Source of the DNA: a virus
Lineage: Duplodnaviria > Caudoviricetes
Virus record (IMG/VR): IMGVR_UViG_3300000530_000004
Location: 1-61,971 of that record
Length of the DNA: 61,971 nucleotides
Direction: 5' to 3' (one strand)
The notes under the pieces are model-generated. The model was not told the DNA's origin. It was given only the letters and a program-made list of their open reading frames with translations, and searched no databases. The translations under genes and the position numbers were made by a program. Of this stretch, positions 29,136 to 46,417 are shown one piece after another. Within the stretch, counting starts at the first letter, position 1. Each line of letters begins with the position of its first letter.

Positions 29136-31785
29136 AGCTTTTCCCATAACCTGATTCACAATTAACAGGTAGACCTGTCGCCCAGTCTGGTACCCAACGC
29201 ATACACTCCTCAACATATTTCTGTGCGTCAGCTACTTCGTCCTCACGAGCTAGACATGCAATAGCGTCGTGTACAGTTAATACCACGTCATACTTCTTAG
29301 CTATCTTAATCATCTGCTCACCGATAACGCATCGGGCAATCGCTTGGCAAACATTCTCAATAACTTTACCGCCGTAGATTTTATTCCAACCTGTGCGGGT
29401 CTTATATCTAAACTCAACGTAACCTGATTCGGCCTCATAACTATGCAGTGTGTCGTAACGTAGTAATAACCCACTTGGTAATTGTATGGCTCGTTCTTTA
29501 GGCACCAACTTCAATACACCCTCTCTACCTAATTCAGTAAAGTTCTCCTGTGCAAGTGCAAAGATCGCTGTATGTGCTTGTTTCCATAGTGCTGTTATCT
29601 GAGGATATGTTGCTCTGTATACGTTAATGATATGCCGCGATTCGTCCTCTGATATTTCTACACCAAACGTCTTAAGCTGTGCTCTGAACTTAACAGCCCC
29701 CATTCCGTATCCGCAGTTATGAACTATAATTGGCCCTACACTTGTCGCAACTGTGTATCTGTTCCTCGGCCCTGCGTAGGCGATGTCGTAAGTCATCAAT
29801 TTCTTTTTGCATATCGGATACTCGTCGTTTGTTTCTAGCATTTTCTGAGCGAGTCGCAAATCGTAAATTATTGGGTTCATACCCTTTGTTGTTGTCGATT
29901 CTATCAAGGTCTCGTTCTGGGTCATCCCATCCAGTGAGTGAAATAAGGTAGCGTAAGAAGTCTGCACGATTGGTACGCCAAGGCTCGTATACGGTAATAC
30001 CTCTACCCCCATATTGAGAATAGGTTTTACAAGTTTTTGTATGACAGCGTGATATGCAACTTGATATGCGGTTAAGCAACCGTTCACGATGTTCCCAATT
30101 TGGTACGATATCTGCATACCCCAAATACTTCTTACGAGTTTTGTTACTAGCGACCTTAGCACACGTATTGCATCTAGTAGTTTTTTTGGAGTTAAAGTTA
30201 TGCCTATCAACTCGTCCTTCCCACCCACACGTGCATCGTACGGTAGGATGGTACCCTCTGTTATACCTAACCCATCCTGTAATGGTAAGTTCACCTTGTT
30301 TAAAGCCGATTGGAAAAGGGAACGGTTTGTAATTACCTCTTTCCATTCCCGCCATCCATGTTCCGTCAGGATTTCGTGATCCGCTGTGGCGTCTAACCCC
30401 CAAGCTGTTATCACTTCTTTTTCGCCTTGTGGTATTACTCCTTGATGTGTTACCCATTCTTTACCGTCCCATAACATATCCGTAGCTTGTACTTCTACGA
30501 TACGCTTCCAACCTGAGTCAGTCAATACTTTTGTATCTTCTCCGAAACACCCAAGAATTGTTGTCTTACCAACGAACCGCTCGTCCTTAGTAATCTCTTC
30601 AACTGGTTTGTTATAAATAGCTGACGCCATAATCTTATAAACGTCTTCACCATTTTTAAATGCAGTAACTAAATCATCTTGTCCCGCTAACCATGCAAGC
30701 ACACGTGCTTCGATCTGGCTTGAGTCTGAGTCAATAATCACATAACCCTCTGGTGCGATAATCGCTTTCTTAAGTTTCCCACCATTAGCGCCACGTGATG
30801 GCAAGTTTTGCAAATTCAAATTGTCTGAACCACCCCACCGTCCAGTGTGCGCAGCGTAATATTTCAAGGGAACTGGCATCAATCCACGATTAGCAATCCC
30901 AATAAATCGTTCTGTTCTGGTTTCTTCCAAGGTCGACTTGGTTCCAAGTCTGGCACTGACTAACGCTTGTATACGCTCGTCTTCATGGTTCGCCAACGCT
31001 TTAAACTCTTCATCATTCTTAGCTAACGCAAAGGTATCTTTTCCTGTGGCAGGACTGGTCTTCATTGGAGGTTCAACGCCATAACTTCTTAACAGTTCAG
31101 CAAACTTGGGATTGCTTGCTAAGTCTTCTTTTGATACGCCCGCATCAACCAGCAGTTTTTCTTTACGTTGTCTAACCTCCATAAGATGTTGCTCTAAGAG
31201 AGTCAGATCAAGGTCTAGTTTCGGCTCAACAAACATACGCAAAGTTAAATCGATTAACTTCATTTCTTTTTTAGGAAAGCCACGTTTAACCATCAGGTTA
31301 AACAACTTATAGGTTAACTCCACATCATTAACGCAGTAGTCACCATAACGACTTAATGCTTCTTCGTTAAAATCAAGTCTGTGTTTACCAAGTGCGTTTA
31401 ATACCTCAGTACCTTTTTTACCAATGCCGTAACGCTCAGTTAACGCAGCGAGACTACCACCAACTTCAACACCATGTAACGCACGTGCCATACATAACGT
31501 ATCTGCATATGCTTTCGGTTTAATGCCAAGTATTTGAGTCAGGATAAACCCATCAAACATTGTGTTGTGGGCAACGAGCATTGAGTCACTCCAAGGATAT
31601 GTCTCAAGAAACTCCTTAAGTTCTTCGTGTGTACCACTAGCCCATGCGGTTTCTTCATCATTTAATTTAACTGCTAAACCAATGATCTCAAACTGATCGC
31701 CACGTATATACTCTTCGGTTGTCATTTTTGACAACGAGTATTGCTTATCGTAATAAGTCTCTATGTCTAATGTAATAAAATTCAT
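29122..31785 (-). CDS. polA: Family A DNA polymerase containing an intein
   Basis: 3'-5' exonuclease LDIET; HTGRW, NLQNLP; motif A DSSQIEAR; motif B RFVGKTTILG|CGYGMG split by the intein; motif C TVHD. Confidence 0.95.
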   Translation of the reverse strand: MNFITLDIETYYDKQYSLSKMTTEEYIRGDQFEIIGLAVKLNDEETAWASGTHEELKEFLETYPWSDSMLVAHNTMFDGFILTQILGIKPKAYADTLCMARALHGVEVGGSLAALTERYGIGKKGTEVLNALGKHRLDFNEEALSRYGDYCVNDVELTYKLFNLMVKRGFPKKEMKLIDLTLRMFVEPKLDLDLTLLEQHLMEVRQRKEKLLVDAGVSKEDLASNPKFAELLRSYGVEPPMKTSPATGKDTFALAKNDEEFKALANHEDERIQALVSARLGTKSTLEETRTERFIGIANRGLMPVPLKYYAAHTGRWGGSDNLNLQNLPSRGANGGKLKKAIIAPEGYVIIDSDSSQIEARVLAWLAGQDDLVTAFKNGEDVYKIMASAIYNKPVEEITKDERFVGKTTILGCFGEDTKVLTDSGWKRIVEVQATDMLWDGKEWVTHQGVIPQGEKEVITAWGLDATADHEILTEHGWREWKEVITNRSLFQSALNKVNLPLQDGLGITEGTILPYDARVGGKDELIGITLTPKKLLDAIRVLRSLVTKLVRSIWGMQISYQIGNIVNGCLTAYQVAYHAVIQKLVKPILNMGVEVLPYTSLGVPIVQTSYATLFHSLDGMTQNETLIESTTTKGMNPIIYDLRLAQKMLETNDEYPICKKKLMTYDIAYAGPRNRYTVATSVGPIIVHNCGYGMGAVKFRAQLKTFGVEISEDESRHIINVYRATYPQITALWKQAHTAIFALAQENFTELGREGVLKLVPKERAIQLPSGLLLRYDTLHSYEAESGYVEFRYKTRTGWNKIYGGKVIENVCQAIARCVIGEQMIKIAKKYDVVLTVHDAIACLAREDEVADAQKYVEECMRWVPDWATGLPVNCESGYGKSYGDC
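29716..30549 (-). mobile_element. Intein (278 aa) in polymerase motif B
   Basis: Begins CFGEDTKVLTDSGW; block B ATADHEILT; ends TYDI...IIVHN followed by Cys+1; removal restores KTTILG-CGYG. Confidence 0.93.
29717..30457 (-). CDS. HNH-type (His-Me finger) endonuclease overprinted in the -1 frame inside the polymerase intein
   Basis: RCTCG..RCNTC, YGGRGITVYEPW and LDRIDNNKGYEPNNLRFATRSENARN motifs; true start may be 30355 or 30346. Confidence 0.85.
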   Translation of the reverse strand: MGNTSRSNTTRRKRSDNSLGVRRHSGSRNPDGTWMAGMERGNYKPFPFPIGFKQGELTITGWVRYNRGYHPTVRCTCGWEGRVDRHNFNSKKTTRCNTCAKVASNKTRKKYLGYADIVPNWEHRERLLNRISSCISRCHTKTCKTYSQYGGRGITVYEPWRTNRADFLRYLISLTGWDDPERDLDRIDNNKGYEPNNLRFATRSENARNKRRVSDMQKEIDDLRHRLRRAEEQIHSCDKCRANYSS

Positions 31786-31964
31786 TTTGTTATATCGTAT
31801 GGTTCTGTTGGAATAATTACTGTGCCTAACGGCTGTTCTTTTTTATGTGGGTACACGTCATGCAATCTACCCTTTATTAATAATGCTTCTCGCTCTAGTG
31901 GTTTTTTTAATTTATCTACTAAGTTTGGATATAACACTTTTGCGAGAATTTTATTAAACATCAT
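31782..31964 (-). CDS. Hypothetical protein
   Basis: Short ORF with ATGA overlap into the polymerase gene. Confidence 0.45.
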   Translation of the reverse strand: MMFNKILAKVLYPNLVDKLKKPLEREALLIKGRLHDVYPHKKEQPLGTVIIPTEPYDITK

Positions 31965-32188
31965 TTATTTAACACCTCATATAGTTTTTGTTTGTAGTGT
32001 TTGGCTTTCTCAAGGTCGGTTACTGCATCACCCTTGTGTCCCGCTCTCATGCTGTACTTAATAATATTGCCTTTTAAAAACCCGATAAATTCTTGCTCGG
32101 TTAATATGCACTCCATAACGTCCCATGGTTGCATTGGCATATCTTTATAATGTGAACCACCTACTTGTCTTTCATCTGCCTTACTCAT
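31961..32188 (-). CDS. DUF3310 (SaV-like) protein
   Basis: QVGGSHY...QPWD...FLKGNIIKY..RAGHK...DLEKAKHY. Confidence 0.85.
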   Translation of the reverse strand: MSKADERQVGGSHYKDMPMQPWDVMECILTEQEFIGFLKGNIIKYSMRAGHKGDAVTDLEKAKHYKQKLYEVLNK

Positions 32189-32229
32189 ATCTTTAAATAC
32201 CTCTAATAATAAATTTGCCATACTAAACC

Positions 32230-32415
32230 TCACATTAAAGCTACGTCGTCGAAGGGTATGCTGGTGGCTTGTGTCTTAACACGTTTGTATGTCCAGCCCT
32301 CCCTGATCCGACATAAGTACTCAGCTTCTGCTTTGCTGAATACAACACGCATTAAGTCGTTTAGTTCGTCAAATACATTAAACTTAACTACGTGGTTTCC
32401 GTTTTTTAATAGCAA
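32230..32415 (-). CDS. Hypothetical protein
   Basis: Short ORF in the leftward operon. Confidence 0.45.
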   Translation of the reverse strand: MLLKNGNHVVKFNVFDELNDLMRVVFSKAEAEYLCRIREGWTYKRVKTQATSIPFDDVALM

Positions 32416-32566
32416 CTATGCCACCCTCAGTCTCGTCCATAGCATCAATCATCTTGTCGGCAATAAACCAACAATCTTTAGCATCATCAGATTCTTCACC
32501 TCTGTGCCATGTCATTTTGAGCATAGCAAATGACGCAAACAAAACTCGTAATTCGGCTTTGTCCAT
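32384..32566 (-). CDS. Hypothetical protein
   Basis: LRVLFASFAM...CWFIADKMI pattern common in phage early proteins. Confidence 0.55.
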   Translation of the reverse strand: MDKAELRVLFASFAMLKMTWHRGEESDDAKDCWFIADKMIDAMDETEGGIVAIKKRKPRS

Positions 32567-32814
32567 TAATGCACCACGCCATCGTCTGGTTCATTTAGAC
32601 CCTCTCTTTCTTTTAGTATTTCGATACCCGCTAATAATATTATTCTTTCTGCTTCATCTGTATCTGAACCAAGGGGTATGATCTTATATTTTGTATTATC
32701 GCCTAGTGGTGTTGGCGTTGCGGTGATTAATACACCCTCAATGTTAGTATGCGGATCAAAACAATAAGCAATTGTCCTAATAATTTTTTGTGCTTTTTTA
32801 ATTTCGTCGCTCAT
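32566..32814 (-). CDS. Hypothetical protein
   Basis: Coupled ORF; shares GVLITA and a C-terminal DGxVH with the upstream gene. Confidence 0.55.
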   Translation of the reverse strand: MSDEIKKAQKIIRTIAYCFDPHTNIEGVLITATPTPLGDNTKYKIIPLGSDTDEAERIILLAGIEILKEREGLNEPDDGVVH

Positions 32815-33086
32815 CAGTGCACCGTCCCATCTATTTCTTGCTCGGCTTCCATGCGGGCTTGGTCTCTGATTAGCTTGAGGGAAATGTCCATTAATAACTT
32901 AACAGTATGTTCTTCATCTAATCCCATAGAGCGCACACCATACTGCACGTTATTGTCCACAATCTCAGCAGTAATTAATACGCCCATAATTTTAGTTTCT
33001 GGGTCAGTACATCTGTTGATAGTTTCAATTAAATCTTTTTTTGTGTCTTCTAGGTTTTTACCTCTTATCCACCCATTTGTGTCCAT
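32814..33086 (-). CDS. Hypothetical protein
   Basis: RBS GGAG; likely paralog of 32566..32814. Confidence 0.55.
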   Translation of the reverse strand: MDTNGWIRGKNLEDTKKDLIETINRCTDPETKIMGVLITAEIVDNNVQYGVRSMGLDEEHTVKLLMDISLKLIRDQARMEAEQEIDGTVH

Positions 33087-33101
33087 TCTCCAATCTCCTG
33101 T

Positions 33102-33392
33102 TTATTTAAATACTTTCTTTTTAATACCCTCAGCTTTACGTAAGTCTGAGGAGTGTAACTTCTTAATCTTTGTATCTTTAATTTGTCCTGCTTTCTTAGC
33201 AATCTTCGCTGCTTTTTTACGTCCTACAAACTTATCTTCGGTTGTTACAAACCCACGCTGTACTTTCTTATCAGGTATATGCTCTTTAGCTTCTAACTGA
33301 TCGTGCGCCCATGCCTTGCTTGGTGCTTCAACAATAACGCCGTCTTTCTTTTTCTTAAGTGCGGGTGCAACAATTTTCTTTGTAACCATCAC
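33102..33392 (-). CDS. Basic hypothetical protein
   Basis: Lys-rich; RGFVTTEDKFVGRKKAAKIAKKAGQ motif. Confidence 0.55.
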   Translation of the reverse strand: MMVTKKIVAPALKKKKDGVIVEAPSKAWAHDQLEAKEHIPDKKVQRGFVTTEDKFVGRKKAAKIAKKAGQIKDTKIKKLHSSDLRKAEGIKKKVFK

Positions 33393-33399
33393 AGTCTCC

Positions 33400-33888
33400 T
33401 TAACGAATAAGAGACTTTATTATACCTTTAACTTTCTGGGTAAACCCTTGTTTCGGCACATTTATATTCATGGTTACAGAATAGTCTTGATGATTAAAAT
33501 TTGTTACTGTATTGCTGGCATAACCCACCGCACTACCCTCTGCTTTAATATTAGTTAGACAAAAAGAATATGGTATTAGATTGCCTCTTAGATCTCTACG
33601 TTCACCTACCTCACTCTCATCTACATAACATACCTCAACTTGTTCTGGTGTGTAGTCTGAAAAAACTATGGTCTCATCATTAACAAACGTTTTCTCAGTC
33701 GCACCCGCTAACGGCACTTCATTAGGTAATAACGATCTAGGATCTGTCCACCCATACCCAAAGTGTTCACTTGTTTTAATACTATTCTGCAATGACTGCG
33801 CCACTTTCATACTAAATTGTTGCTGTGCGCTTTGCAGTTGGGCAATAGTATTATCTATTGCTTCTTGAGATATCTCAGCCTTATCCAT
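33400..33888 (-). CDS. Hypothetical protein
   Basis: 162-aa ORF with an RBS-like GAGGA upstream. Confidence 0.5.
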   Translation of the reverse strand: MDKAEISQEAIDNTIAQLQSAQQQFSMKVAQSLQNSIKTSEHFGYGWTDPRSLLPNEVPLAGATEKTFVNDETIVFSDYTPEQVEVCYVDESEVGERRDLRGNLIPYSFCLTNIKAEGSAVGYASNTVTNFNHQDYSVTMNINVPKQGFTQKVKGIIKSLIR

Positions 33889-34031
33889 TGGTTTCGTCCT
33901 CGTCTTTCACTTCTACTAGGTCTCTATCGTTAATCTCAATGCTTCCTTGCATATAGATTGTCTCTACCGACTTATCGTACTCATCACCAAATAGTTTATT
34001 AAGTGCGGGGGTTAAAGTATCAACTATATCT

Positions 34032-34499
34032 TTACGATTTATTGCCATTTAATTTACTTTCTAAGTACTCAACTAAACCCTCTGCTTTAATTGCTCTGTC
34101 GTAGTTTAGTCTGGCGATACGTTTAGCTTCATCAAGTCTTTCTTTATATTCACCGCTCATCTCATCAGCACGTAACTTAGCTAATTCTTCTTGCAGTGCG
34201 TCTATGCGTCTGATTGCATTGTTATACAAGACACGTAAGTCTGGTTGGCTTTCATTAACTTGTTGTGCTGTGATTGGCGCATCAAAGTCAAAGCTCGCCT
34301 GTATAGATTTTAATGACTTTCTCTTACGCTTTTGTCTATTGATCGTACCCTCAATGATGCCTTGACGTTTTAATTCGTAACGTAAGCCTGAGATATAATC
34401 TTTAGTTAGATTAGTTATTGAGGATAATTCTGCCGTTGTAACCTTTGGGTTTTCCAATAGCATTTTCAGAATCAGTTGATTCTCTGGTGTTTGTCTCAT
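34032..34499 (-). CDS. Winged-helix DNA-binding protein with coiled coil
   Basis: ILKMLLENPKVTTAELSSITNLTKDYISGLRYELKRQGII; RBS GGAG before MRQTPE. Confidence 0.6.
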   Translation of the reverse strand: MRQTPENQLILKMLLENPKVTTAELSSITNLTKDYISGLRYELKRQGIIEGTINRQKRKRKSLKSIQASFDFDAPITAQQVNESQPDLRVLYNNAIRRIDALQEELAKLRADEMSGEYKERLDEAKRIARLNYDRAIKAEGLVEYLESKLNGNKS

Positions 34500-34788
34500 T
34501 GCAATTCTCCATTTGTTGTTTAAGTCTTTGTACGTCGTCCTCACGCACTACGAGTGCTATACCACCCGCTTGTTGTATTTCTTTTAAGTTCTTATCTTGT
34601 AGTGCGGTGACTTGTCCACGTCCCGCTTTTGTTTCAATGCCAAAAAACTTTCCGTTGTAGCAAACTAAAAAATCTGGTGCGCCTTGTTTGCCGTAACCGT
34701 TGGTCACTGGCATCACGTAGTATGCTTTGAGTTCATCAAGAACCTTACGCACACCACGTTTAACTTTGCTTTCAGGTGTCAGCGCCAT
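34411..34788 (-). CDS. VRR-NUC nuclease (resolvase-like)
   Basis: TPESKVK...GAPDFL...GIETKAG...QDKNL...AGGIALVV. Confidence 0.85.
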   Translation of the reverse strand: MALTPESKVKRGVRKVLDELKAYYVMPVTNGYGKQGAPDFLVCYNGKFFGIETKAGRGQVTALQDKNLKEIQQAGGIALVVREDDVQRLKQQMENCNETNTRESTDSENAIGKPKGYNGRIILNN

Positions 34789-36252: not shown

Positions 36253-37434
36253 TTAATTAATATGTATACACACGCCATTGCTTGGGTGTGCTGATTTATT
36301 ATCTTTAATGCACCACAATACTGGCACTGACCATTGTCCCCATGATCCACCTAAGTAACCATCAGTCAGTACTACTACACACTCTGGTTTAATATCGTGC
36401 TCGTTCATATACTGTGGCACACACTCTACCATAGTGCCACCACCACCCATAGGTTTTGTAGACTTAGCTATGTTAGCTAACTCGTCTTGCAAGTATACTT
36501 CTTCTCGACATACCTCAGTGTCCCAGTACAAGATCCTTACTTTACTCGGTTTCAATTGCTCGCATATACCAATAAATTCGCTTACGAATGACTTTAAAAA
36601 CTCGTCATCAATAGAACCTGACATGTCGTTGGCGATTACTATCTCACCGAGCGTTTCACTTATTGCACTTGGCATTAACATGTCATAGCCTATGTATCTG
36701 CGGTTAGGTTTACGCCATGTCGAGTAATCATGTCCCGCACAAGTAGTCGATACAAACTCACGCAGTAACTCACGCCAATCACGCTGTGTAGCAAGCACGT
36801 CTTCAAACGCACGAGAACCACCTGACCCAACCTTGCTTGCTAGTGTCGCACCTTGTCGTATAGCTTCATCAATCTCACGTGCCAGTTGATCTTGTTCCTC
36901 GGCGGTCATTTCCTGTGCACCTTCCCAGTCGTGCTCGTCAAAGCCCTCGCTGTTACCCGCGCCGCCTGTCTTCTCATCTGACCCATCACGCTCTAACATC
37001 TTATAGACCTGTTGTGCGTCCATGTTGTGATACTGTGGATCTAGTAGTCCATGCTTAGGCATTGTGATCCACCCACGTTTAAACGCATCTGTCTCAGTGA
37101 GTTTAAGATTAATCACATAGTCACATGCTTTGTTCGCACGTCGTGGGTCTTCCTTATACAAGTGTCGCCACGTAGTAAGATGTCTGTATAACTTGTGATA
37201 GTTCTCATGTAGTATCAAGAATCTAAACTCTGCGTCATTCAAACTTTCTACAAACGCACGACCATAGTATTCGTTCTTACCATTGGTACAGGCAGTCGGC
37301 ACGTTATCTTTAATCTCACGTGTACCAATAACTAATATACCCGCCAATGGTAGAAACTCATCAGTACCCATCAAGTCCGTCATGGCTTTATGTAGCCGTT
37401 GCTCTGCTGTTAGTTGCTTACCTATTGATAACAT
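36253..37434 (-). CDS. DUF2201 metallopeptidase plus VWA-like domain protein
   Basis: PTACTNG, LHENYHK (HExxH), NKACDYVIN, DMSGSI (MIDAS), GGGGT and VVLTDG. Confidence 0.88.
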   Translation of the reverse strand: MLSIGKQLTAEQRLHKAMTDLMGTDEFLPLAGILVIGTREIKDNVPTACTNGKNEYYGRAFVESLNDAEFRFLILHENYHKLYRHLTTWRHLYKEDPRRANKACDYVINLKLTETDAFKRGWITMPKHGLLDPQYHNMDAQQVYKMLERDGSDEKTGGAGNSEGFDEHDWEGAQEMTAEEQDQLAREIDEAIRQGATLASKVGSGGSRAFEDVLATQRDWRELLREFVSTTCAGHDYSTWRKPNRRYIGYDMLMPSAISETLGEIVIANDMSGSIDDEFLKSFVSEFIGICEQLKPSKVRILYWDTEVCREEVYLQDELANIAKSTKPMGGGGTMVECVPQYMNEHDIKPECVVVLTDGYLGGSWGQWSVPVLWCIKDNKSAHPSNGVCIHIN

Positions 37435-39567: not shown

Positions 39568-39573
39568 AGTTTA

Positions 39574-40619: not shown

Positions 40620-40635
40620 GTTTATTCTCCTGTTG

Positions 40636-40654
40636 TGTTAGTCGGCGACTAACT
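40636..40654. repeat. 19-bp palindrome, copy 4
   Basis: TGTTAGTCGGCGACTAACT overlapping the TAG of 40653..40865. Confidence 0.95.
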
Positions 40655-40865
40655 ATTTAACTAAGCCACCTTTATTGTTTAAACCGACTAGTAGTGTCGG
40701 GTCTGTAATTAGCATGTAACTGCTTTTATGCATAGGTGCAACGCACCAAGACGCACGCTGTAATTGTGCAATCTCTTCACCGCATAACATGCATACATGT
40801 ATGCCTAAGTCCCAACGTGCTTTGGGTACAGTTTCACCGCAGTAACTGCAATATCTGTTATTCAT
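40653..40865 (-). CDS. TraR/DksA-like C4 zinc-finger protein
   Basis: CSYCGETVPKARWDLGIHVCMLC follows the CxxCG..IP..R......CxxC pattern. Confidence 0.6.
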   Translation of the reverse strand: MNNRYCSYCGETVPKARWDLGIHVCMLCGEEIAQLQRASWCVAPMHKSSYMLITDPTLLVGLNNKGGLVK

Positions 40866-40867
40866 GT

Positions 40868-41167
40868 TTATTCTCCTATCTCATAAACCGTAAATTTATT
40901 ATCTTCTATCTCATAAACCATAAATTTATTATCTTCTGGCATGCCTAACTGCACCGAAAATGTGTTATGGCTTAACGGCTTAAACTCTTTTGCTGGTCTA
41001 TCAAGATAAAGCCATGAGCCACCCTCAAACTGCACGGCATTGGTTTTGCGTTTAATTACCTTACGCTTAACGCCTATATGCTTTCCATCAGGATACCAAT
41101 CGTGCCTAACCATGGTTATAGTCGCACCCTCTACTAATTTTCTTTTGATGTCTGCAAAAGTTTTCAT
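40868..41167 (-). CDS. Hypothetical early protein
   Basis: RBS AGGAG; C-terminal 10-aa duplication. Confidence 0.6.
   Translation of the reverse strand: MKTFADIKRKLVEGATITMVRHDWYPDGKHIGVKRKVIKRKTNAVQFEGGSWLYLDRPAKEFKPLSHNTFSVQLGMPEDNKFMVYEIEDNKFTVYEIGE
40876..40935. repeat. 30-bp tandem duplication with one mismatch
   Basis: CTATCTCATAAACC(G/A)TAAATTTATTATCTT twice, encoding DNKFMVYEIE and DNKFTVYEIG. Confidence 0.9.
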
Positions 41168-41169
41168 GT

Positions 41170-41544
41170 TTATTCTCCTATTAAGATGTTTATGTTTAAT
41201 AACATTGGTAAATCTAATGTAACGCCCTTGATGCCGTACATAGCTATGCGACGCATGCTATTGGTGTCCATGGGTAAGCAATCGGCGTCTGGTCTGCATT
41301 GGGTCATGTGCTTACTGGTTGTCGGGCTGTATTTGTCTATGTTTCTGTACCACTGTCTACTGCCGTCTGGTGCAATCTCGCATATGTACATGGGAAAGTG
41401 TGTGCCGTATGAATAGACTACGTAGCGGGTTGTATGCACGTTGTCGTTTGAGGGTTTTAGCATTGAAAAAATGTTACTACCTTTAAACAGTTCTAAGTTG
41501 TTCACATACTTGCGTGCATCTCGGTTTGCGATTACTGTTTCCAT
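41170..41544 (-). CDS. Hypothetical early protein
   Basis: YVVYSYGTHFPMY...KYSPTTSKH; RBS TAGGAG; first gene after a consensus promoter. Confidence 0.65.
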   Translation of the reverse strand: METVIANRDARKYVNNLELFKGSNIFSMLKPSNDNVHTTRYVVYSYGTHFPMYICEIAPDGSRQWYRNIDKYSPTTSKHMTQCRPDADCLPMDTNSMRRIAMYGIKGVTLDLPMLLNINILIGE

Positions 41545-41565
41545 GTTTGCATCTCCTATTGTTAA

Positions 41566-41584
41566 TGTTAGTCGGCGACTAACT
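41566..41584. repeat. 19-bp palindrome, copy 5
   Basis: TGTTAGTCGGCGACTAACT between a promoter and an RBS. Confidence 0.95.
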
Positions 41585-41632
41585 CGGCAAGTGATTGATT
41601 TATATATAATGTTCTTCTTTCACTATGACTCT

Positions 41633-41661
41633 ATTATAGCATGTTGAGGGGTAACTGTCAA
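41633..41661 (-). promoter_or_regulatory. Consensus early sigma70 promoter
   Basis: TTGACA-17-TATAAT with TGn extended -10. Confidence 0.9.
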
Positions 41662-41689
41662 AGTTTAGCAAATTGTAGTAAATAATAAA

Positions 41690-42170
41690 AGTGTATTTTG
41701 TTCTATAAAAGTTCTTTATAAGTTATTGATTTATATATATTGTTCAGAAAGTCCTAATGTTCCAAAGTTAATTGGCTGATTTCTATTTTAGTTTTTTGTT
41801 TAGAGTATGCAAAATACATGGTTTTTTAAATTTTTTCGGGAAACGCACTTTGACCCTGTGAACTTTATGAACTTTAGGACAAAGCCCTATCCATGCGGAC
41901 TCTGTTGGAACTTTCATTGGAACTTTTAACCGAATTTAGGAACTTTTAAAAAATCACGTGATAACATCTTTATAATTTAATCTTGTGATAACAAGTTATG
42001 GTGTGTGTCATACAGCAAACATGTTTTTTATTTGACGCATGTAGCAACATGTTAAGACGTAATTAAATTTTTTTTTGAAAAAAGCATGCGGAGCATGAAG
42101 CTGTTGGAACTGGTATCAATAACTTTTTGTGTGTACTACGTGATAACTTATTAAGCTACAAAAATTCAAG
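41690..42170. other. AT-rich non-coding region with short iterated motifs (candidate origin or genome-end region)
   Basis: GAACTTT at 41860, 41869, 41908, 41920 and 41940; GTGATAAC three times; no ORF of 60 aa or more. Confidence 0.4.
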
Positions 42171-42172
42171 AC

Positions 42173-42197
42173 AAAAAAAAGCCCGCTCAAAGCGGGC
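42173..42197 (-). terminator. Rho-independent terminator
   Basis: Minus strand reads GCCCGCT-TTG-AGCGGGC-TTTTTTTT. Confidence 0.88.
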
Positions 42198-42206
42198 TAG
42201 TTTGCG

Positions 42207-42225
42207 AGTTAGTCGGCGACTAACT
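42207..42225. repeat. 19-bp palindrome, copy 6
   Basis: AGTTAGTCGGCGACTAACT, 4 nt beyond the stop codon of 42230..42889. Confidence 0.95.
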
Positions 42226-42229
42226 ATTT

Positions 42230-42889
42230 TTATCCTCGATTTTTTAGTTCCTCGAGTTTCATTTTATTTAATATTGCGGTAATGGTTTTTATATCCTTTT
42301 CACAATTGCTAAAACTTGATTCTTTTAAACTATCGACGAACGTGTCGCCGTTGATTATTGCCTTTTCATTGGCGGTTTTCTTAACAGTAACTTTCTTTTC
42401 TTTCGGTTCCAGCCCAATAATATGGTTACGAATTTTGTTAAAAACCGATCCTATTTGTTGCTGTAAGTACTTGCGTGCTCTCTTTTCAAAATCGTTAAAA
42501 TCTTTTGCTAATTCTTTACTTGCTAGCACTAACACGTCGCATGCGTGTCTTATTGTGTCGTGTTGATAATCACTAGGTAACTTGCGTGTTTTAAAACCTA
42601 CGGCGATAGCGTTTTTAATATCAGAGTGTAAACGCTCGTAACTATCTTTATTTTTATTATCAAGCATGAACCCTGTTATCCCGTCAGTAGTATATAAACT
42701 CTTAGCCATATCGAGCCATTTTGCGTCAGTATTACCACTAGACTCTACTGCGTCAATTATCTTACTACGTGATATTTCTGAAATGGTTACTTGTATATCT
42801 GTAACTGTATCTGTATTTGTAACTGTATCTGTATCGATAATTAACTCATTAGCTGTAATTGCCTTTTTGTTTTGTTTACTTGTTGCCAT
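42230..42889 (-). CDS. Monocistronic early protein of unknown function
   Basis: Has its own promoter, RBS AAAGGGGA before MATSKQ, and terminator. Confidence 0.7.
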   Translation of the reverse strand: MATSKQNKKAITANELIIDTDTVTNTDTVTDIQVTISEISRSKIIDAVESSGNTDAKWLDMAKSLYTTDGITGFMLDNKNKDSYERLHSDIKNAIAVGFKTRKLPSDYQHDTIRHACDVLVLASKELAKDFNDFEKRARKYLQQQIGSVFNKIRNHIIGLEPKEKKVTVKKTANEKAIINGDTFVDSLKESSFSNCEKDIKTITAILNKMKLEELKNRG

Positions 42890-42933
42890 GATATATTCCC
42901 CTTTGTTAGTTAAGTGCAAACCGCACAATTAAT

Positions 42934-42962
42934 ACTATACAGATTTTGTCATAACATGTCAA
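42934..42962 (-). promoter_or_regulatory. Early sigma70 promoter
   Basis: TTGACA-17-TATAGT. Confidence 0.8.
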
Positions 42963-42980
42963 TATTTGATAGACTTTGAT

Positions 42981-42999
42981 AGTTAGTCGCCGACTAACT
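42981..42999. repeat. 19-bp palindrome, copy 7 (opposite orientation, central C)
   Basis: AGTTAGTCGCCGACTAACT. Confidence 0.95.
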
Positions 43000-43151
43000 T
43001 TGACGACCCCACCCCCCGAATTTGGATTTGGTTCCATGCGGTTTGTATTGCTTACTATTCTGCGCACTCACATTCCAATTTTTCAAATTCGGCCTAGCTA
43101 ATCATGTTGCATGGCAACAAAGTTTCCCAGAAGCACAAGCTCTTGGTATAA

Positions 43152-43363
43152 AAACACCCCCCGGGTAGGATTCCTAAACGTCACTGCATAAAAAAATTAT
43201 TTTGTCTAGGACCTGAGATCGTCGATTTGGGGTCCTACTGCATTAACTTGTTGCTTTTAAAACAGAAAAATTAGATTAAACCTGCAGCGTTGACAACGTG
43301 ATACATTTCTCCATAACTTGTTAACATGTGTTTATAGAAACACCCCCCGGGTAGGATTCCTAA
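43152..43363 (+). repeat. 26-bp direct repeat pair AAACACCCCCCGGGTAGGATTCCTAA
   Basis: Exact copies at 43152-43177 and 43338-43363, upstream of the terminase operon. Confidence 0.9.
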
Positions 43364-43368
43364 CATCC

Positions 43369-43397
43369 TTGACGAAAACTAATTTTTTGTATATAAC
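43369..43397 (+). promoter_or_regulatory. Sigma70-like promoter of the packaging/structural arm
   Basis: TTGACG-17-TATAAC. Confidence 0.65.
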
Positions 43398-43422
43398 TGC
43401 ACCATAACTTATTAATCGGTGC

Positions 43423-43992
43423 ATGGACACAATGCATATAATCGAACCGGACTTTTCAATACCCATACCTGACAAACCTACACCGTTGACTGATTTCACG
43501 GAAAAGGTCGAAGCCGCTTGCCGTACCATTGAAGAGTACGACATTGAAGCGGTTATTACTGAAGAGACTGCAGAAGAAGCTGAAGAAGCTATTTATCAAA
43601 TGGCTTCAAGTCCTGATCCTGATAAGATAAATAAACAACTCGCTAAGCAAAACCATCTACCTGCATATTACGTACAAGCCCGTGGCATCCTTGATGCATA
43701 CTCACACAAGGTCGTAGACCATGCGATGCAGCTACGTCTATTAGTTACTAATAAGTTAATTATTGAGACTGAGAATGAAGACGCGAAGATTCGTCTGCGT
43801 GCATTAGAACTGCTTGGTAAGATTACTGACGTTGGCTTATTTACTGAGAAGTCGGAAGTAACTATTAATCATAGATCAACCGTTGAGTTAGTTGGATCCT
43901 TAAGAGCTAAGATTCAGAAGCTTATGTATCCTGACAATGTGCAGGAAGGTGAAGTAGTCGAGCAAAAGGACGACAATGCAGACGGCGCTTGA
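43423..43992 (+). CDS. Putative terminase small subunit
   Basis: Directly upstream of TerL; RLRALELLGKITDVGLFTEK oligomerisation-like motif. Confidence 0.65.
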   Translation: MDTMHIIEPDFSIPIPDKPTPLTDFTEKVEAACRTIEEYDIEAVITEETAEEAEEAIYQMASSPDPDKINKQLAKQNHLPAYYVQARGILDAYSHKVVDHAMQLRLLVTNKLIIETENEDAKIRLRALELLGKITDVGLFTEKSEVTINHRSTVELVGSLRAKIQKLMYPDNVQEGEVVEQKDDNADGA

Positions 43993-46417
43993 TGAGTTAA
44001 CAGATAAAGAACTTGAGTTTCTTGCTAATAACTTAGACAAGTTTAGTGAAGTTGACGCTGAAGAGTTAGAAGTAATCTTAGATGAAATAGAAAAACGTCA
44101 GAGCGCTGAGCGTTGCCGCAACGACTTAATTGAGTTTTGTAAGCGTATTCAGCCGGATTATAAGGTGGGTAAACACCATAGACGCCTTGCAGATTTATTA
44201 ATGGGTCTCGCTGCTGGTACTGAGACACGTGTTTGCGTGAACATGCCCCCTCGTCATGGTAAATCTCAGCTTGTTTCTATCTATTTCCCTGCATGGTTTC
44301 TAGGTAAGTACCCTGATAAAAAGGTGCTGATGGTGTCACATACAACCGACCTTGCGGTGGACTTTGGTCGGAAAGTGAGGAATTTAATTGATACTCCAGT
44401 ATATAAAGAGATATTTCCTACAGTTGCCCTTGCTCTGGATAATAAATCTGCTGGTCGTTGGAATACTAACGTTGGTGGGGAGTATTTTGCTTGTGGTGTT
44501 GGGTCTGCCTTGGCTGGTCGTGGAGCGGACTTATTATTGGTGGATGACCCGCACAACGAACAAGACATAATTAACGGTAACTTTGATGTATTCGACAAGG
44601 CTTACGAGTGGTTTACTTATGGTGCTCGTACACGTCTTATGCCTAATGGCCGTGTGGCTATCGTGCAGTGTATGGTCGGAGATACTCAGGTTTTAATGGG
44701 AGATGGTACAGAAAAAGACCTTAAAGATATTAAAGTTGGGGACATAGTAGCTACTTATGATGCTGGGAAATTAAGTACATCTAGAGTACTAAATCATCAG
44801 TCAAACGGTATTGATCGCATATTTACAATCAAGACAACCTCACGTATACTACAAGCTAATGAAAGACATCCGTTTCTTGTACAAACTAGTGAGGGGCAAA
44901 AATGGGTACGGCTGAAAAACTTGAAACAGGGGGATACACTTGTATCGTTGAAGGGTGTGGGAGACCAAGTAGAGCAACAACAAAACCTAGTAAATGCCGA
45001 GCCTGCCAATCTAAAGACAGTTACCATAAAAAACACCCAGAGGCTCCACGCAGAGAACTTGGGCATTGGGGGAAATATAAAGGTAAAACCTGTATTGCAG
45101 ATGGTTGTGAACAACCAGCAAAGATTAAAGGATTGTGTAACTCGCACTATAACAAAACTAATTGGGCCTCTGGACATTGGCGCAGAAGCGCGGACAAAAA
45201 TAGAACTGCGCACCTTAAGCACCGATACGGCATCACGATGGAAGAGCATGATACGCTTCTTGCAAAACAAGGTGGTGTCTGTGCTATCTGTAAGCAGCCG
45301 CCAACTAAAGAAAATACCCGCGCTCATTGGAATGGAAAATTATGTGTTGACCACTGTCACGACACCGGAAAAGTCCGGGGGCTTTTATGTAATGACTGCA
45401 ACCTCGCGGTTGGATACGCAAAAACTAGAAATACCGCCCTTGCAGTTGCAGAGTATATCGGACTTCACGATAGACACGATTGAGTCTATAGAATACGCAG
45501 GGGAAGCAGAAGTATTTGATATTCAGGTCGAACACACTGAAAACTTCATTGCTAATGGAGTAGTTTCTCATAATACTAGATGGCACCAAGACGATTTAAC
45601 AGGTCGTGTCGTGCGAGACATGACTCAGAATGAAGAAGCTGATCAGTATGAGATTGTTGAGTTCCCTGCAATATTTAATGAGAACAGTGCGAATGAAAAA
45701 GCACTCTGGCCTGAACAATATTCCTTACAAGCACTGCGACAGACCAAGGCTTCTATGCCTGTGTTTCAGTGGAACGCACAGTACCAACAAAATCCCACAG
45801 CAGAAGAAGCATCTGTTATAAAGAGAGAGTGGTGGCAGATATGGAAAGGTGAGAATCCACCTCCATGTGAGTATTTAATAATGACACTTGATGCCGCTGC
45901 AGAAACTCATAACCGTGCCGACTACACTGCACTAACAACGTGGGGGGTGTTTTTAAATGAAGAAACCGACGCCTATAACGTTATTCTCCTCAACAGTATT
46001 AAGCGACGAGTGGAGTTCACTGAGCTTAAAGAGCTTGCGATTAACGAGTACACCGAGTGGCAACCTGACGCTTTCATTGTCGAGAAAAAGTCTTCCGGTA
46101 CGCCTCTCTATCAAGAACTACGACGAACTGGGATGCCCGTACTGGAGTATACTCCCCACAGAGGATCAGGGGATAAATTAGCCCGTTTAAATAGTGTGGC
46201 AGATATTGTGAAGTCAGGATTAGTGTGGGTTCCTGAGACTCGTTGGGCTGAGGAGTTAGTTGAGGAAGTAGCGGGGTTTCCCTTTATGTCGCACGATGAC
46301 TTAGTAGATACGACTTCCATGGCTCTCATGCGATTTAGACAAGGTGGGTTTATTAGGCTACCATCTGATGAACCTGATGAAGTTCAGTACTTTAAACGTA
46401 AGCGGTCTTATTATTAA
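43976..46417 (+). CDS. terL: Terminase large subunit containing an intein
   Basis: MPPRHGKS Walker A, LLVDDP Walker B, IVQ|TRWH motif split by the intein; nuclease LDAA...HDDLVD. Confidence 0.95.
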   Translation: MQTALDELTDKELEFLANNLDKFSEVDAEELEVILDEIEKRQSAERCRNDLIEFCKRIQPDYKVGKHHRRLADLLMGLAAGTETRVCVNMPPRHGKSQLVSIYFPAWFLGKYPDKKVLMVSHTTDLAVDFGRKVRNLIDTPVYKEIFPTVALALDNKSAGRWNTNVGGEYFACGVGSALAGRGADLLLVDDPHNEQDIINGNFDVFDKAYEWFTYGARTRLMPNGRVAIVQCMVGDTQVLMGDGTEKDLKDIKVGDIVATYDAGKLSTSRVLNHQSNGIDRIFTIKTTSRILQANERHPFLVQTSEGQKWVRLKNLKQGDTLVSLKGVGDQVEQQQNLVNAEPANLKTVTIKNTQRLHAENLGIGGNIKVKPVLQMVVNNQQRLKDCVTRTITKLIGPLDIGAEARTKIELRTLSTDTASRWKSMIRFLQNKVVSVLSVSSRQLKKIPALIGMENYVLTTVTTPEKSGGFYVMTATSRLDTQKLEIPPLQLQSISDFTIDTIESIEYAGEAEVFDIQVEHTENFIANGVVSHNTRWHQDDLTGRVVRDMTQNEEADQYEIVEFPAIFNENSANEKALWPEQYSLQALRQTKASMPVFQWNAQYQQNPTAEEASVIKREWWQIWKGENPPPCEYLIMTLDAAAETHNRADYTALTTWGVFLNEETDAYNVILLNSIKRRVEFTELKELAINEYTEWQPDAFIVEKKSSGTPLYQELRRTGMPVLEYTPHRGSGDKLARLNSVADIVKSGLVWVPETRWAEELVEEVAGFPFMSHDDLVDTTSMALMRFRQGGFIRLPSDEPDEVQYFKRKRSYY
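44669..45574 (+). mobile_element. Intein (302 aa) in TerL
   Basis: Begins CMVGDTQVLMGDG..IKVGD; block B ANERHPFLV; ends VFDIQVEHTENFIANGVVSHN followed by Thr+1. Confidence 0.95.
44902..45483 (+). CDS. Endonuclease VII-type (His-Me finger) nuclease overprinted in the -1 frame inside the TerL intein
   Basis: SD GAGGGG at 44891-44896; CIVEGC and CIADGC...GLCNSHY zinc motifs; RYGIT..QGGVCAIC..LCVDHCHDTGKVRGLLCNDCNLAVG. Confidence 0.92.
   Translation: MGTAEKLETGGYTCIVEGCGRPSRATTKPSKCRACQSKDSYHKKHPEAPRRELGHWGKYKGKTCIADGCEQPAKIKGLCNSHYNKTNWASGHWRRSADKNRTAHLKHRYGITMEEHDTLLAKQGGVCAICKQPPTKENTRAHWNGKLCVDHCHDTGKVRGLLCNDCNLAVGYAKTRNTALAVAEYIGLHDRHD

What the first reader, a model, noticed from the sequence alone, without database searches (positions are those of the whole stretch)
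29716..45574. Two inteins whose homing endonucleases are separate genes overprinted in the -1 frame
Seen: the PolA intein (29716-30549) and the TerL intein (44669-45574) both have intact Hint N- and C-terminal motifs. Their in-frame middles show no LAGLIDADG or HNH motif. In both, a second long same-strand ORF at offset +2 (equivalent to -1) spans the middle and encodes a clear His-Me-finger nuclease, HNH type in Pol and endonuclease VII type in TerL. Established: canonical full-length inteins carry the endonuclease in frame. Inference: this is a distinct intein architecture in which the nuclease is translated independently and the intein frame is kept open only as a linker to be spliced out. 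Two different nuclease families in two different host genes suggest a recurring design rather than an accident. Standard annotation would miss these nested genes. I know of no description of this arrangement, but I could not check the literature.
Basis: partly seen in the sequence, partly recalled or inferred. Interest (0 to 1): 0.95.

Follow-up and report, generated by a model that had tools for sequence, protein, structure and literature searches.

The report
Inteins with out-of-frame homing nuclease genes
Two self-splicing inteins in this phage's DNA polymerase and terminase genes each hide a separate nuclease gene in a shifted reading frame; this is real and under selection, but the design is already described in recent intein studies.

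Summary
The PolA intein (29716-30549, minus strand) contains a 246-aa ORF at +2. The TerL intein (44669-45574, plus strand) contains a 193-aa ORF at +2. The TerL ORF is a clear endonuclease VII (Pfam 4.9e-19). The PolA ORF matches PHROG families named HNH endonuclease but no Pfam HNH model, and it has Arg where I recall the first HNH histidine.

The arrangement is neither chance nor a sequencing error. The same +2 nesting occurs in 86 of 86 TerL loci and 28 PolA loci. Pooled dN/dS over the overlap is 0.15 and 0.07 in the nuclease frame, against 1.15 and 1.45 in the intein frame. AlphaFold2 gives no confident structure for the in-frame PolA middle. The closest extein relatives lack both inteins (77 of 77 TerL, 80 of 80 PolA), which fits mobility.

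The novelty claim fails. Out-of-frame endonuclease VII in terminase inteins of actinophages is described in a 2025 preprint, and those phages are the best GenBank matches here. A +2 nuclease in the dnaX intein is in a 2026 preprint. My four searches found no report of the PolA/HNH-like case.

Verdict: new members of a known kind.

The parts
29122..31785 (-). Family A DNA polymerase precursor ORF (887 aa) interrupted by an intein in the K-TTILG|(C)GYGMG motif
   Evidence: Pfam DNA_pol_A 3.6e-35 in two stretches, and PHROG DNA polymerase families.
29716..30549 (-). PolA intein, 278 aa, class-1-like: Cys1, block B T55..H58, terminal His-Asn, +1 Cys
   Evidence: Boundaries. Invariant C1, T55, H58, H277 and N278 in 16 sequences. 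The profile hits the Mtu RecA mini-intein at E 2.2e-4. The AlphaFold2 model's best Foldseek hits, down to about rank 45, are almost all mini-intein or Hint structures (6frg E 1.4e-3, prob 1.00, rmsd 2.1 over 86 columns). All 80 closest extein relatives lack the insert.
29818..30279 (-). In-frame middle of the PolA intein (intein residues 91-244): an open linker with no confident fold
   Evidence: AlphaFold2 pLDDT is below 50 for residues 91-244, against block means of 68-93 (mostly 78-93) for residues 1-90 and 82-92 for about 251-278. Intein-frame amino-acid identity among relatives is at the level of the non-coding third frame.
29717..30457 (-). Nested +2-frame ORF, 246 aa plus stop: an HNH-like nuclease. 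It has a small beta domain at about residues 50-95, a nuclease-like domain at about 112-211 with the motif LDRIDNNKGYEPNNLRF, and a C-terminal helix.
   Evidence: Its stop codon TAA is built from the intein's last His-Asn codons (CAT AAC). dN/dS is 0.07 in this frame.
43976..46417 (+). Terminase large subunit precursor ORF (813 aa) interrupted by an intein at ...VAIVQ|TRWHQDD
   Evidence: Pfam Terminase_6N and Terminase_6C; PHROG terminase large subunit 4e-100.
44669..45574 (+). TerL intein, 302 aa: Cys1, terminal His-Asn, +1 Thr
   Evidence: Pfam Intein_splicing 6e-17, 62.3 bits against a cut-off of 35.8. NCBIfam intein_Cterm 1.1e-7, above its cut-off. Of the 80 closest extein relatives, all 77 with the junction on the locus lack the insert.
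44902..45483 (+). Nested +2-frame ORF, 193 aa plus stop: an endonuclease VII-type His-Me finger nuclease with two N-terminal Cys-rich modules
   Evidence: Pfam PF02945 4.9e-19. D150, H151, H153, N164 and N167 are invariant in 16 sequences. The profile hits 1e7d at E 9.7e-5. dN/dS is 0.15 in this frame.
44891..44896 (+). Shine-Dalgarno-like GAGGGG, 5 nt upstream of the nested endonuclease VII start codon, lying inside the intein coding frame
   Evidence: Sequence read. An SD core lies 3-12 nt upstream of the first ATG in 48 of 72 unique related loci, against a background of about 0.10.

Best explanation
Both elements are mobile inteins whose homing nuclease is a separate gene overprinted in the +2 (-1) frame of the intein's middle, rather than an in-frame domain.

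The host mRNA is read in frame 0 to give a precursor. Its Hint N- and C-terminal parts fold together and splice out the intein, including a structureless in-frame linker. That linker's only requirement is to contain no stop codon. The same mRNA is read from an internal start codon in the +2 frame to give a free nuclease. In TerL this is an endonuclease VII type. In PolA it is an HNH-like, possibly PacI-like, type.

The nuclease is inferred to cut intein-less alleles at the conserved insertion motif, so that repair copies the whole intein into them (homing). The likely origin is invasion of a mini-intein by a free-standing homing endonuclease gene, as Gosselin et al. propose.

What is shown: the anatomy, the recurrence, the frame-specific selection, and the absence of the inteins from the closest relatives. 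What is inferred: splicing, independent translation, cleavage and homing.
For: (1) Recurrence. The nuclease sits at host frame -1 inside an open host ORF with Hint similarity in 86 of 86 TerL loci (5 GenBank, 80 IMG/VR, the window). The same holds in 28 PolA loci (5 GenBank, 22 IMG/VR, the window). Of the other 54 PolA-nuclease relatives, 53 had no covering ORF and 1 showed an odd small overlap. No in-frame case was seen.

(2) Frame-specific constraint over the same nucleotides. Amino-acid pairwise identity in the nuclease / intein / third frame is 0.565 / 0.332 / 0.308 for TerL (72 unique sequences). It is 0.482 / 0.329 / 0.268 for PolA (25 unique sequences). The most variable codon position is the third position of the nuclease frame (0.559 and 0.555). 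In the flanking Hint and extein controls, the phase is that of the host frame.

(3) Pooled Nei-Gojobori over close pairs. For TerL (26 pairs), dN/dS is 0.15 in the nuclease frame and 1.15 in the intein frame. For PolA (16 pairs), it is 0.07 and 1.45.

(4) Window against its 97% relative L086. Of 21 differences in the overlap, 14 are silent in the nuclease frame but change the intein frame, and only 3 are the reverse. In the exteins, 22 of 24 differences are silent.

(5) Chance is excluded: 0 of 3000 in each resampling test.

(6) The AlphaFold2 model of the PolA intein has a confident Hint core and 154 residues below pLDDT 50. The core matches solved mini-inteins.

(7) An SD core lies upstream of the endonuclease VII start in 48 of 72 loci against a background of 0.10.

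(8) Sporadic distribution. The inteins are absent from 77 of 77 TerL and 80 of 80 PolA closest extein relatives, with clean junctions.
Against: The PolA nested ORF shows no SD enrichment (3 of 25 against a background of 0.10), so how it is initiated is unknown.

Its nuclease identity is weak. It has no Pfam or NCBIfam HNH hit and no PDB sequence hit. Foldseek found nothing at E of 0.001 or better. The only nuclease fold match is PacI at Z 3.6. The position I recall as the catalytic His is an invariant Arg.

The related sequences are not independent, so pooled counts overstate the sample size. dN/dS in overlapping frames is biased, because constraint in one frame inflates the ratio in the other.
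Confidence: 0.8

Rival explanations
1. Sequencing or assembly artefact: the nucleases are really in frame, and two compensating indel errors per intein shift them.
For: This is a metagenome-derived virus record, and reads could not be inspected.
Against: The same +2 offset is seen in 114 loci from independent records, including 10 GenBank phage genomes. The host frame is open across the whole nuclease in all of them, which in-frame nucleases with indel errors would not predict (0 of 3000 by chance).
Confidence: 0.01
2. Relics: free-standing nuclease genes once invaded the inteins and are now untranslated pseudogenes drifting inside a frame that selection keeps open.
For: One relative (L024) has a stop in the first third of the nuclease ORF. 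The PolA ORF has no clear ribosome-binding site.
Against: Purifying selection in the nuclease frame is strong, with dN/dS of 0.07 and 0.15. The nuclease ORF spans the match in 86 of 86 TerL loci. In PolA, 10 of 28 loci were flagged, 9 of them only by a short difference at the C-terminal end. Active-site residues are invariant.
Confidence: 0.04
3. Programmed -1 ribosomal frameshifting: the nuclease is made as a fusion to the N-extein and the Hint N-part, not from its own start codon.
For: The nuclease frame is the -1 frame, and the PolA ORF lacks a Shine-Dalgarno motif.
Against: A stop codon in the nuclease frame lies at most 3 codons upstream of the first ATG in 21 of 25 PolA loci, and at most 5 codons upstream in 33 of 72 TerL loci. 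That leaves no room for a shift site. I saw no conserved slippery heptamer in the upstream sequences printed. The TerL ORF has its own SD.
Confidence: 0.03
4. The nested nucleases are expressed but serve the phage, for example in DNA packaging, recombination or exclusion of competitors, rather than intein homing. For PolA, the protein may be a non-catalytic DNA-binding protein.
For: The PolA protein has Arg where I recall the first HNH histidine. From recall, HNH proteins that assist terminases are known in other phages. Selection shows that a function exists, not which function.
Against: The closest relatives of the host genes lack the whole element (77 of 77 and 80 of 80), so it is dispensable to the phage type. 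The nuclease always travels inside an intein at one conserved site. In one case the nuclease and extein similarities disagree: L029 and L030 have the most similar N-extein (627 bits) but only 47% nuclease identity.
Confidence: 0.1

Closest known systems
[quoted passage not shown]
   Same: The nuclease family, the frame ('frame 3 relative to the intein') and the host gene (terminase large subunit) are the same. The phages they name (Affeca, Keitabear, Sedona, and 'Angelicase', which I take to be Angelicage) are the best GenBank matches of the TerL nested ORF, at 52-57% identity. I confirmed +2 nesting in Angelicage, the only one of these four that I fetched. They matched the same PDB structure, 1E7D; here it was hit by sequence profile.
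   Different: The window is a 41% G+C metagenomic phage and not an actinophage. Eighty further IMG/VR loci show the family is widespread outside PhagesDB. Here there is a Shine-Dalgarno motif upstream of the nested start. I did not see in that preprint the frame-resolved selection statistics obtained here.
Cyanobacterial dnaX intein with a +2-frame LAGLIDADG nuclease (Phillips, DeSimone and Gogarten, bioRxiv 10.64898/2026.09.14.751524; abstract and section 17 read), first proposed by Gorbalenya 1998, 'Non-canonical inteins' (not held; known only through the citing papers)
   Same: An intein with the nuclease in an overlapping +2 frame. Omega is low in the nuclease frame and raised in the intein frame. 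Secondary invasion of a mini-intein is the proposed origin.
   Different: The nuclease family differs (LAGLIDADG), and the host is a cellular gene rather than a phage gene.
ShiLan domain: an out-of-frame HNH insertion in a mycobacteriophage methylase (Arsenault et al., Genes 2025, PMC11855218; abstract and section 4 read)
   Same: A hidden HNH gene in another frame of an insertion that stays open in the host frame. The stop codon lies in the last four bases (TAAC), and the PolA intein here also ends ...CATAAC. How it is translated is unclear because there is no ribosome-binding site.
   Different: ShiLan has no splicing domain and is thought to stay in the protein. Here the insertion is a full intein with Hint blocks.
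Fractured genes with split inteins and a free-standing nuclease gene between the halves (Dassa et al. 2009, PMC2677866; abstract and passages read)
   Same: A free-standing-type homing nuclease gene lodged inside an intein at the usual nuclease insertion point.
   Different: There the host gene is broken into two ORFs and spliced in trans. Here the host frame is continuous.
Canonical bifunctional inteins with an in-frame LAGLIDADG or HNH domain
   Same: A Hint splicing domain plus a nuclease at the same position between the splicing blocks, in conserved motifs of replication and packaging genes.
   Different: Here the nuclease is not part of the intein polypeptide. No in-frame relative was found among the 114 nested loci, nor among the 10 long representatives I scanned out of 150 listed.

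Membership tests
Intein (Hint domain, class 1) | N-terminal Cys1 nucleophile, and C-terminal His-Asn followed by a +1 Cys, Ser or Thr | tested here: met
   PolA: C...VHN|C. TerL: C...SHN|T. C1, H277 and N278 are invariant in 16 PolA inteins.
Intein (Hint domain, class 1) | Block B TxxH | tested here: met
   In PolA, T55 and H58 are invariant. In TerL the block reads NERH, with His present and Asn at the Thr position (my own reading). It is therefore fully met for PolA and partly met for TerL.
Intein (Hint domain, class 1) | Hint fold or profile match | tested here: met
   TerL: Pfam Intein_splicing 62.3 bits against a cut-off of 35.8, and intein_Cterm above its cut-off. PolA has no Pfam or NCBIfam hit, but its profile hits Mtu RecA, DnaX and DnaB mini-inteins (best E 2.2e-4), and the model's best Foldseek hits, down to about rank 45, are almost all Hint structures.
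Intein (Hint domain, class 1) | The insert is absent from close homologues, with a precise junction in a conserved motif | tested here: met
   77 of 77 TerL and 80 of 80 PolA closest relatives have no insert. The junctions are ...IVQ|TRWH and KTTILG|(A/C/S)GYGMG.
Intein (Hint domain, class 1) | Protein splicing activity | not testable with these tools
   This needs expression of the precursors.
Recombination endonuclease VII (PF02945), TerL nested ORF | Profile match above the curated threshold, with conserved D-H-x-H...N...N and Cys ligands | tested here: met
   68.5 bits against a cut-off of 23.6. D150, H151, H153, N164, N167 and the Cys residues are invariant. T4 endonuclease VII 1e7d is hit at E 9.7e-5. 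The catalytic roles of these residues are recalled, not tested.
HNH / His-Me finger nuclease, PolA nested ORF | Match to a curated HNH profile | tested here: not met
   There is no Pfam or NCBIfam HNH hit for the protein, for its 15 relatives, for 10 free-standing relatives or for 10 long representatives. Only PHROG families carrying the name HNH endonuclease match.
HNH / His-Me finger nuclease, PolA nested ORF | Beta-beta-alpha-metal fold | tested here: inconclusive
   The AlphaFold2 model has pLDDT 75. Foldseek placed PacI at rank 8 with E 1.5. VIA-align gave PacI 3m7k_A Z 3.6, rmsd 3.5, 81 residues aligned over residues 112-211, at rank 34. The Atlas nearest clusters include an 'HNH endonuclease family protein' cluster and clusters in which 12-53% of members carry NUMOD-type (I-HmuI-associated) domains, at scores of 0.82-0.88, below the 0.9 level.
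HNH / His-Me finger nuclease, PolA nested ORF | First catalytic His of the HNH motif | tested here: inconclusive
   The motif is L-D-R-I-D-N-N-K-G-Y-E-P-x-N-L-R-F, with D185, R186, D188, N197, N206 and N209 invariant. By my recalled alignment to I-HmuI-type motifs, R186 sits where the His would be. No tool aligned it to a characterised HNH enzyme.
Non-canonical intein with an out-of-frame nuclease (Gosselin et al. 2025 type D) | The nuclease is encoded in frame 3 (+2) of the intein, between the splicing blocks, on the same strand | tested here: met
Non-canonical intein with an out-of-frame nuclease (Gosselin et al. 2025 type D) | The in-frame middle forms no recognisable structure | tested here: met
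   For PolA, residues 91-244 have pLDDT below 50.
Non-canonical intein with an out-of-frame nuclease (Gosselin et al. 2025 type D) | Homology to the named members | tested here: met
   The TerL nested ORF is 52-57% identical to the nested region in Angelicage, Affeca, Sedona and Keitabear. The PolA nested ORF belongs to a different nuclease family from any they describe out of frame.
Fractured gene / split intein (Dassa et al. 2009) | The host gene is split into two separate ORFs by the nuclease gene | tested here: not met
   The host ORFs are continuous, with no internal stops.

The most novel reading that the evidence does not exclude
The PolA element would be a second, independently arisen and so far unreported out-of-frame homing-nuclease intein. 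Its nuclease comes from a very large phage family named HNH endonuclease in PHROGs, for which none of the members I scanned hit a Pfam model (120,014 representatives at E up to 0.001). An Arg sits where I recall the first HNH His.

Its ORF overlaps not only the linker but also the Hint N-part, including block B, and in this window the C-terminal splicing region through the terminal His-Asn. That would be true dual coding.

It sits unannotated in well-studied culturable phages (Salmonella Jerseyvirus such as SETP3 and LP31, and Pseudomonas MR14). This would make the idea that a free-standing nuclease gene invades a mini-intein directly testable as a general route to intein mobility.
Probability: 0.55. 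Interest if true: 0.55.

Novelty: new member of a known kind. Interest (0 to 1): 0.4.

Why it matters
The finding shows that out-of-frame homing nucleases in inteins are not an actinophage curiosity. They occur in at least two nuclease families and two host genes. They are found in more than 100 loci, including metagenomic phages and common Salmonella phages whose records list only an 'intein-containing DNA polymerase precursor'.

This has three consequences. Intein surveys that look only in frame will misclassify such inteins as mini-inteins or as inteins with 'unknown' middles, and so underestimate mobility. Gene callers miss real nuclease genes. The culturable carriers offer a practical system to test how an internal overlapping ORF is translated, and whether splicing and homing can be supplied by two separate gene products.

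The general idea is already in print, so the value here is breadth, quantitative support and a new nuclease/host pair, not a new principle.

Tried and rejected
DNA-level search of the PolA gene against GenBank phages found nothing. For the TerL gene it gave only short matches. Protein-level searches were needed.

Sigma-70-type promoter scans of both inteins found 4 and 3 sites, against 2.7 and 2.5 expected from shuffles. This gives no evidence for an internal promoter.

Structure of the PolA nested protein:
- Foldseek against the PDB gave no hit at E of 0.001 or better.
- The wide VIA-align search gave only Z of 4.5 or less. Tudor/SH3-like rows covered residues 45-95, and PacI scored Z 3.6.
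- Sequence and profile searches of the PDB gave nothing for this protein.

Pfam scans of 10 free-standing relatives and 10 long representatives gave no HNH or Hint domain. I therefore found neither a transitive link to a curated HNH family nor an in-frame intein fusion. Only 10 of the 150 listed representatives were scanned.

Literature: four searches found no paper on an out-of-frame HNH in a family A polymerase intein. The Felix O1 paper (passages) and Kelley et al. 2016 (passages) do not mention it. Supplementary tables of the Gosselin preprint were not seen and may list more host/nuclease pairs. Gorbalenya 1998 is not held.

I considered a frameshift fusion and rejected it (see rivals). 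I considered a formal tree-incongruence test and did not run it; only similarity scores are quoted.

Complex prediction, read laying and the metagenome and genome contig scans were not used.


Full report
**The observation**

The window is a 61,971-bp virus record that CheckV rates 99% complete, with about 41% G+C.

The minus-strand ORF 29122..31785 (887 aa) is a family A DNA polymerase. Pfam DNA_pol_A matches in two stretches, and PHROG DNA polymerase families match. It is interrupted at aa 413-690 (window 29716-30549) by a 278-aa insert that starts CFGEDT and ends IIVHN, followed by Cys.

The plus-strand ORF 43976..46417 (813 aa) is a terminase large subunit. It is interrupted at aa 232-533 (44669-45574) by a 302-aa insert that starts CMVGDT and ends VVSHN, followed by Thr.

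Each insert contains a long same-strand ORF at offset +2: 29717..30457 (246 aa) and 44902..45483 (193 aa).

**More than chance**

In the other 41 ORFs of at least 150 aa in the window, the longest open +2 stretch is 74 codons and 11.3% of +2 codons are stops. The two nested ORFs are open for 247 and 196 codons.

I kept either protein fixed and resampled synonymous codons from the window's codon usage. The other frame stayed open in 0 of 3000 trials in each of the four tests, with 6.8 to 17.6 stops expected (one search had timed out).

**The two inserts are inteins**

TerL: Pfam Intein_splicing scores 6e-17, above its threshold. NCBIfam intein_Cterm is above its threshold.

PolA: no curated intein model matches. 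However, an alignment of 16 relatives has invariant C1, T55, H58, H277 and N278. Its profile hits the Mtu RecA mini-intein (E 2.2e-4) and the DnaX and DnaB mini-inteins. In the AlphaFold2 model, block-mean pLDDT is 68-93 (mostly 78-93) for residues 1-90 and 82-92 for residues of about 251-278. The model's best Foldseek hits, down to about rank 45, are almost all mini-intein or Hint structures, for example 6frg at E 1.4e-3, prob 1.00, rmsd 2.1 over 86 columns. Residues 91-244 of the in-frame translation have pLDDT below 50.

**The nested proteins**

The TerL one is an endonuclease VII. Pfam PF02945 scores 4.9e-19. D150, H151, H153, N164, N167 and the Cys ligands are invariant in 16 sequences. 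The profile hits T4 endonuclease VII 1e7d at E 9.7e-5.

The PolA one matches PHROG families named HNH endonuclease (3.7e-27). It belongs to a very large family, with 120,014 representatives at E up to 0.001 and 472 at E up to 1e-30. Several checks nevertheless leave its identity weak:
- Neither it nor 15 relatives, 10 free-standing relatives or 10 long representatives hit any Pfam HNH model.
- It has no PDB sequence match.
- Its model (pLDDT 75) matches PacI only weakly (Foldseek E 1.5; VIA-align Z 3.6 over residues 112-211).
- Its conserved motif LDRIDNNKGYEPxNLRF has an invariant Arg where I recall the first HNH histidine.

I therefore call it HNH-like, not 'clear HNH'.

**Recurrence**

The best GenBank matches of the TerL nested protein lie inside terminase genes of Gordonia and Mycobacterium phages; 37 of the 40 listed rows lie under a terminase feature. 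Those of the PolA nested protein lie inside DNA polymerase genes of Salmonella Jerseyvirus phages, EBPR siphovirus 2, Pseudomonas phage MR14 and a Vibrio phage; 31 of the 40 listed rows lie under a polymerase feature.

In all 10 loci fetched, the nuclease is at +2 relative to the host frame, which is the annotated CDS in 9 loci and the longest open frame in the unannotated L004. None of the 9 annotated records lists a nested CDS.

IMG/VR scans added 75 and 80 loci. In total:
- In 86 of 86 TerL loci, the nuclease is nested at host frame -1, inside an open host ORF with Hint similarity.
- For the PolA nuclease, 28 loci are nested in the same way.
- A further 53 more distant PolA-nuclease relatives have no covering ORF, and 1 shows an odd small overlap.
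- No in-frame case was seen.

The nuclease ORF spans the match in all 86 TerL loci. Among the 28 PolA loci, 10 were flagged. Nine differ only near the C-terminal end, and one (L024) has a stop in the first third.

**Selection**

On codon alignments guided by the nuclease protein, the most variable position is the third position of the nuclease frame. Diversity at nuclease-frame positions 1, 2 and 3 is 0.350, 0.287 and 0.559 for TerL (72 unique sequences, 189 columns). It is 0.441, 0.348 and 0.555 for PolA (25 sequences, 232 columns).

Amino-acid identity over the same nucleotides in the nuclease, intein and third frames is 0.565, 0.332 and 0.308 for TerL. It is 0.482, 0.329 and 0.268 for PolA.

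In the flanking Hint N-part, intein tail and C-extein, the host third position is the most variable. There the host-frame identity is 0.37-0.80, against 0.19-0.36 in the off frames.

Pooled Nei-Gojobori estimates for pairs 0.5-20% apart give these dN/dS values:
- TerL (26 pairs): 0.15 in the nuclease frame and 1.15 in the intein frame.
- PolA (16 pairs): 0.07 in the nuclease frame and 1.45 in the intein frame.

The window and its 97% relative L086 differ at 47 of 2442 ungapped positions. In the overlap, 14 of 21 differences are silent in the nuclease frame but change the intein frame, 3 are the reverse, 3 change both, and 1 changes neither. In the exteins, 22 of 24 differences are silent.

The sequences are related to each other, and dN/dS in overlapping frames is biased. 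Even so, the asymmetry is large and consistent.

Along the ORFs, the first 40 or so codons of the PolA nuclease ORF and the first 17 or so of the TerL one overlap conserved Hint N-terminal sequence, and there the host frame is the better conserved one. In the window, the PolA nuclease ORF runs to one base short of the intein end. Its TAA stop is formed by the His-Asn codons CAT AAC.

**Translation**

The TerL nested ATG is preceded by GAGGGG with a 5-nt spacer. An SD core lies 3-12 nt upstream of the first ATG in 48 of 72 unique loci, mostly at a spacing of 7, against a background of 0.10.

The PolA nested ORF shows no such enrichment (3 of 25). Its start codon comes from a conserved Trp codon of the Hint domain (xxA TGG), and how it is initiated is open.

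A stop codon in the nuclease frame lies at most 3 codons upstream of the ATG in 21 of 25 PolA loci, and at most 5 codons upstream in 33 of 72 TerL loci. This argues against a frameshift fusion. Promoter scans were uninformative.

**Mobility**

The 80 closest IMG/VR relatives of each N-extein lack the inserts. For TerL this is 77 of the 77 with the junction on the locus, at 74-85% identity. For PolA it is 80 of 80, at 66-82% identity.

The TerL junctions read ...IVQ|TRWH. In PolA the +1 residue is Ala in 73, Cys in 5 and Ser in 2 of the 80 intein-less alleles, whereas the intein-bearing window allele has the required Cys.

L029 and L030 have the most similar N-extein among the intein-bearing loci (627 bits) but only 47% nuclease identity.

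**Comparison with what is known**

Gosselin, Arsenault and Gogarten (bioRxiv 2025; sections 8 and 15 and passages read) report endonuclease VII-like nucleases in 'reading frame 3 relative to the intein' in actinophages. They propose that a free-standing nuclease gene invaded an intein. They note that the in-frame middle has no recognisable structure, and they matched 1E7D. The phages they name are my best matches.

Phillips et al. (bioRxiv 2026; section 17) show a +2 LAGLIDADG nuclease in the dnaX intein with the same dN/dS asymmetry, and cite Gorbalenya 1998.

Arsenault et al. 2025 describe an out-of-frame HNH insertion that lacks a splicing domain.

Dassa et al. 2009 describe the split-gene version.

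The architecture is therefore known, and the TerL element is a new member outside actinophages. An out-of-frame HNH-like nuclease in a family A polymerase intein did not turn up in four searches. I could not see the supplements.

**Verdict**

The mechanistic reading is supported by comparative evidence. The novelty claim is not. Expression, splicing and cleavage remain untested. These are new members of a known kind, of moderate interest.

Noticed in passing
window 29713-29715 (+1 codon of the PolA C-extein); L247-L326: Intein-less PolA relatives carry Ala at the +1 position in 73 of 80, Cys in 5 and Ser in 2. The intein-bearing window allele has Cys. Homing would therefore have to co-convert this codon. 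The 5 Cys alleles could be footprints of intein loss or pre-adapted sites.
   Followed up: partly
window 29716-29721 (-): The PolA nested ORF's TAA stop is made from the intein's terminal His-Asn codons, so the intein ends ...CATAAC. The published ShiLan out-of-frame HNH insertion has the same 'TAAC' end. From the coordinates, only the three closest IMG/VR relatives (L011-L013) share this end; the other loci I compared stop 25-46 nt earlier.
   Followed up: partly
L024:2501-3142: One PolA-intein relative has a stop in the first third of the nuclease frame, while the host frame stays open. This may be a decaying nuclease on the way to a mini-intein.
   Followed up: no
L029, L030: These two have the most similar polymerase N-extein among the intein-bearing loci (627 bits), but the lowest Hint score of any nested PolA locus (117 bits) and only 47% nuclease identity. 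This suggests independent acquisition or replacement of the intein.
   Followed up: no
P0002 family: The HNH-like family of the PolA nested protein is very large: 120,014 cluster representatives at E up to 0.001. None of the 36 member sequences I scanned hit a Pfam HNH model. Its conserved motif has Arg (DRID) where I recall the HNH histidine. Some long members carry an SNF2 N-terminal part (P0051) or a methylase fragment (P0129) next to it.
   Followed up: partly
window 36253-37434 (-): A free-standing 393-aa ORF matches PHROG phrog_1314 'HNH endonuclease' at 5.3e-86. It would be a third nuclease gene of the homing type in this genome.
   Followed up: no
window 44797-45327 (-): A 176-aa antisense ORF lies opposite the endonuclease VII ORF inside the TerL intein. 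It is probably a by-product of the double constraint on the sense strand. I did not examine it.
   Followed up: no
window 13082-19825 (+): A 2247-aa ORF has a C-terminal part that matches PHROG 'DarB-like antirestriction' (1.4e-60) and an endolysin-like stretch. It follows a 701-aa protein with a lytic transglycosylase domain. These are probably ejected virion proteins.
   Followed up: no
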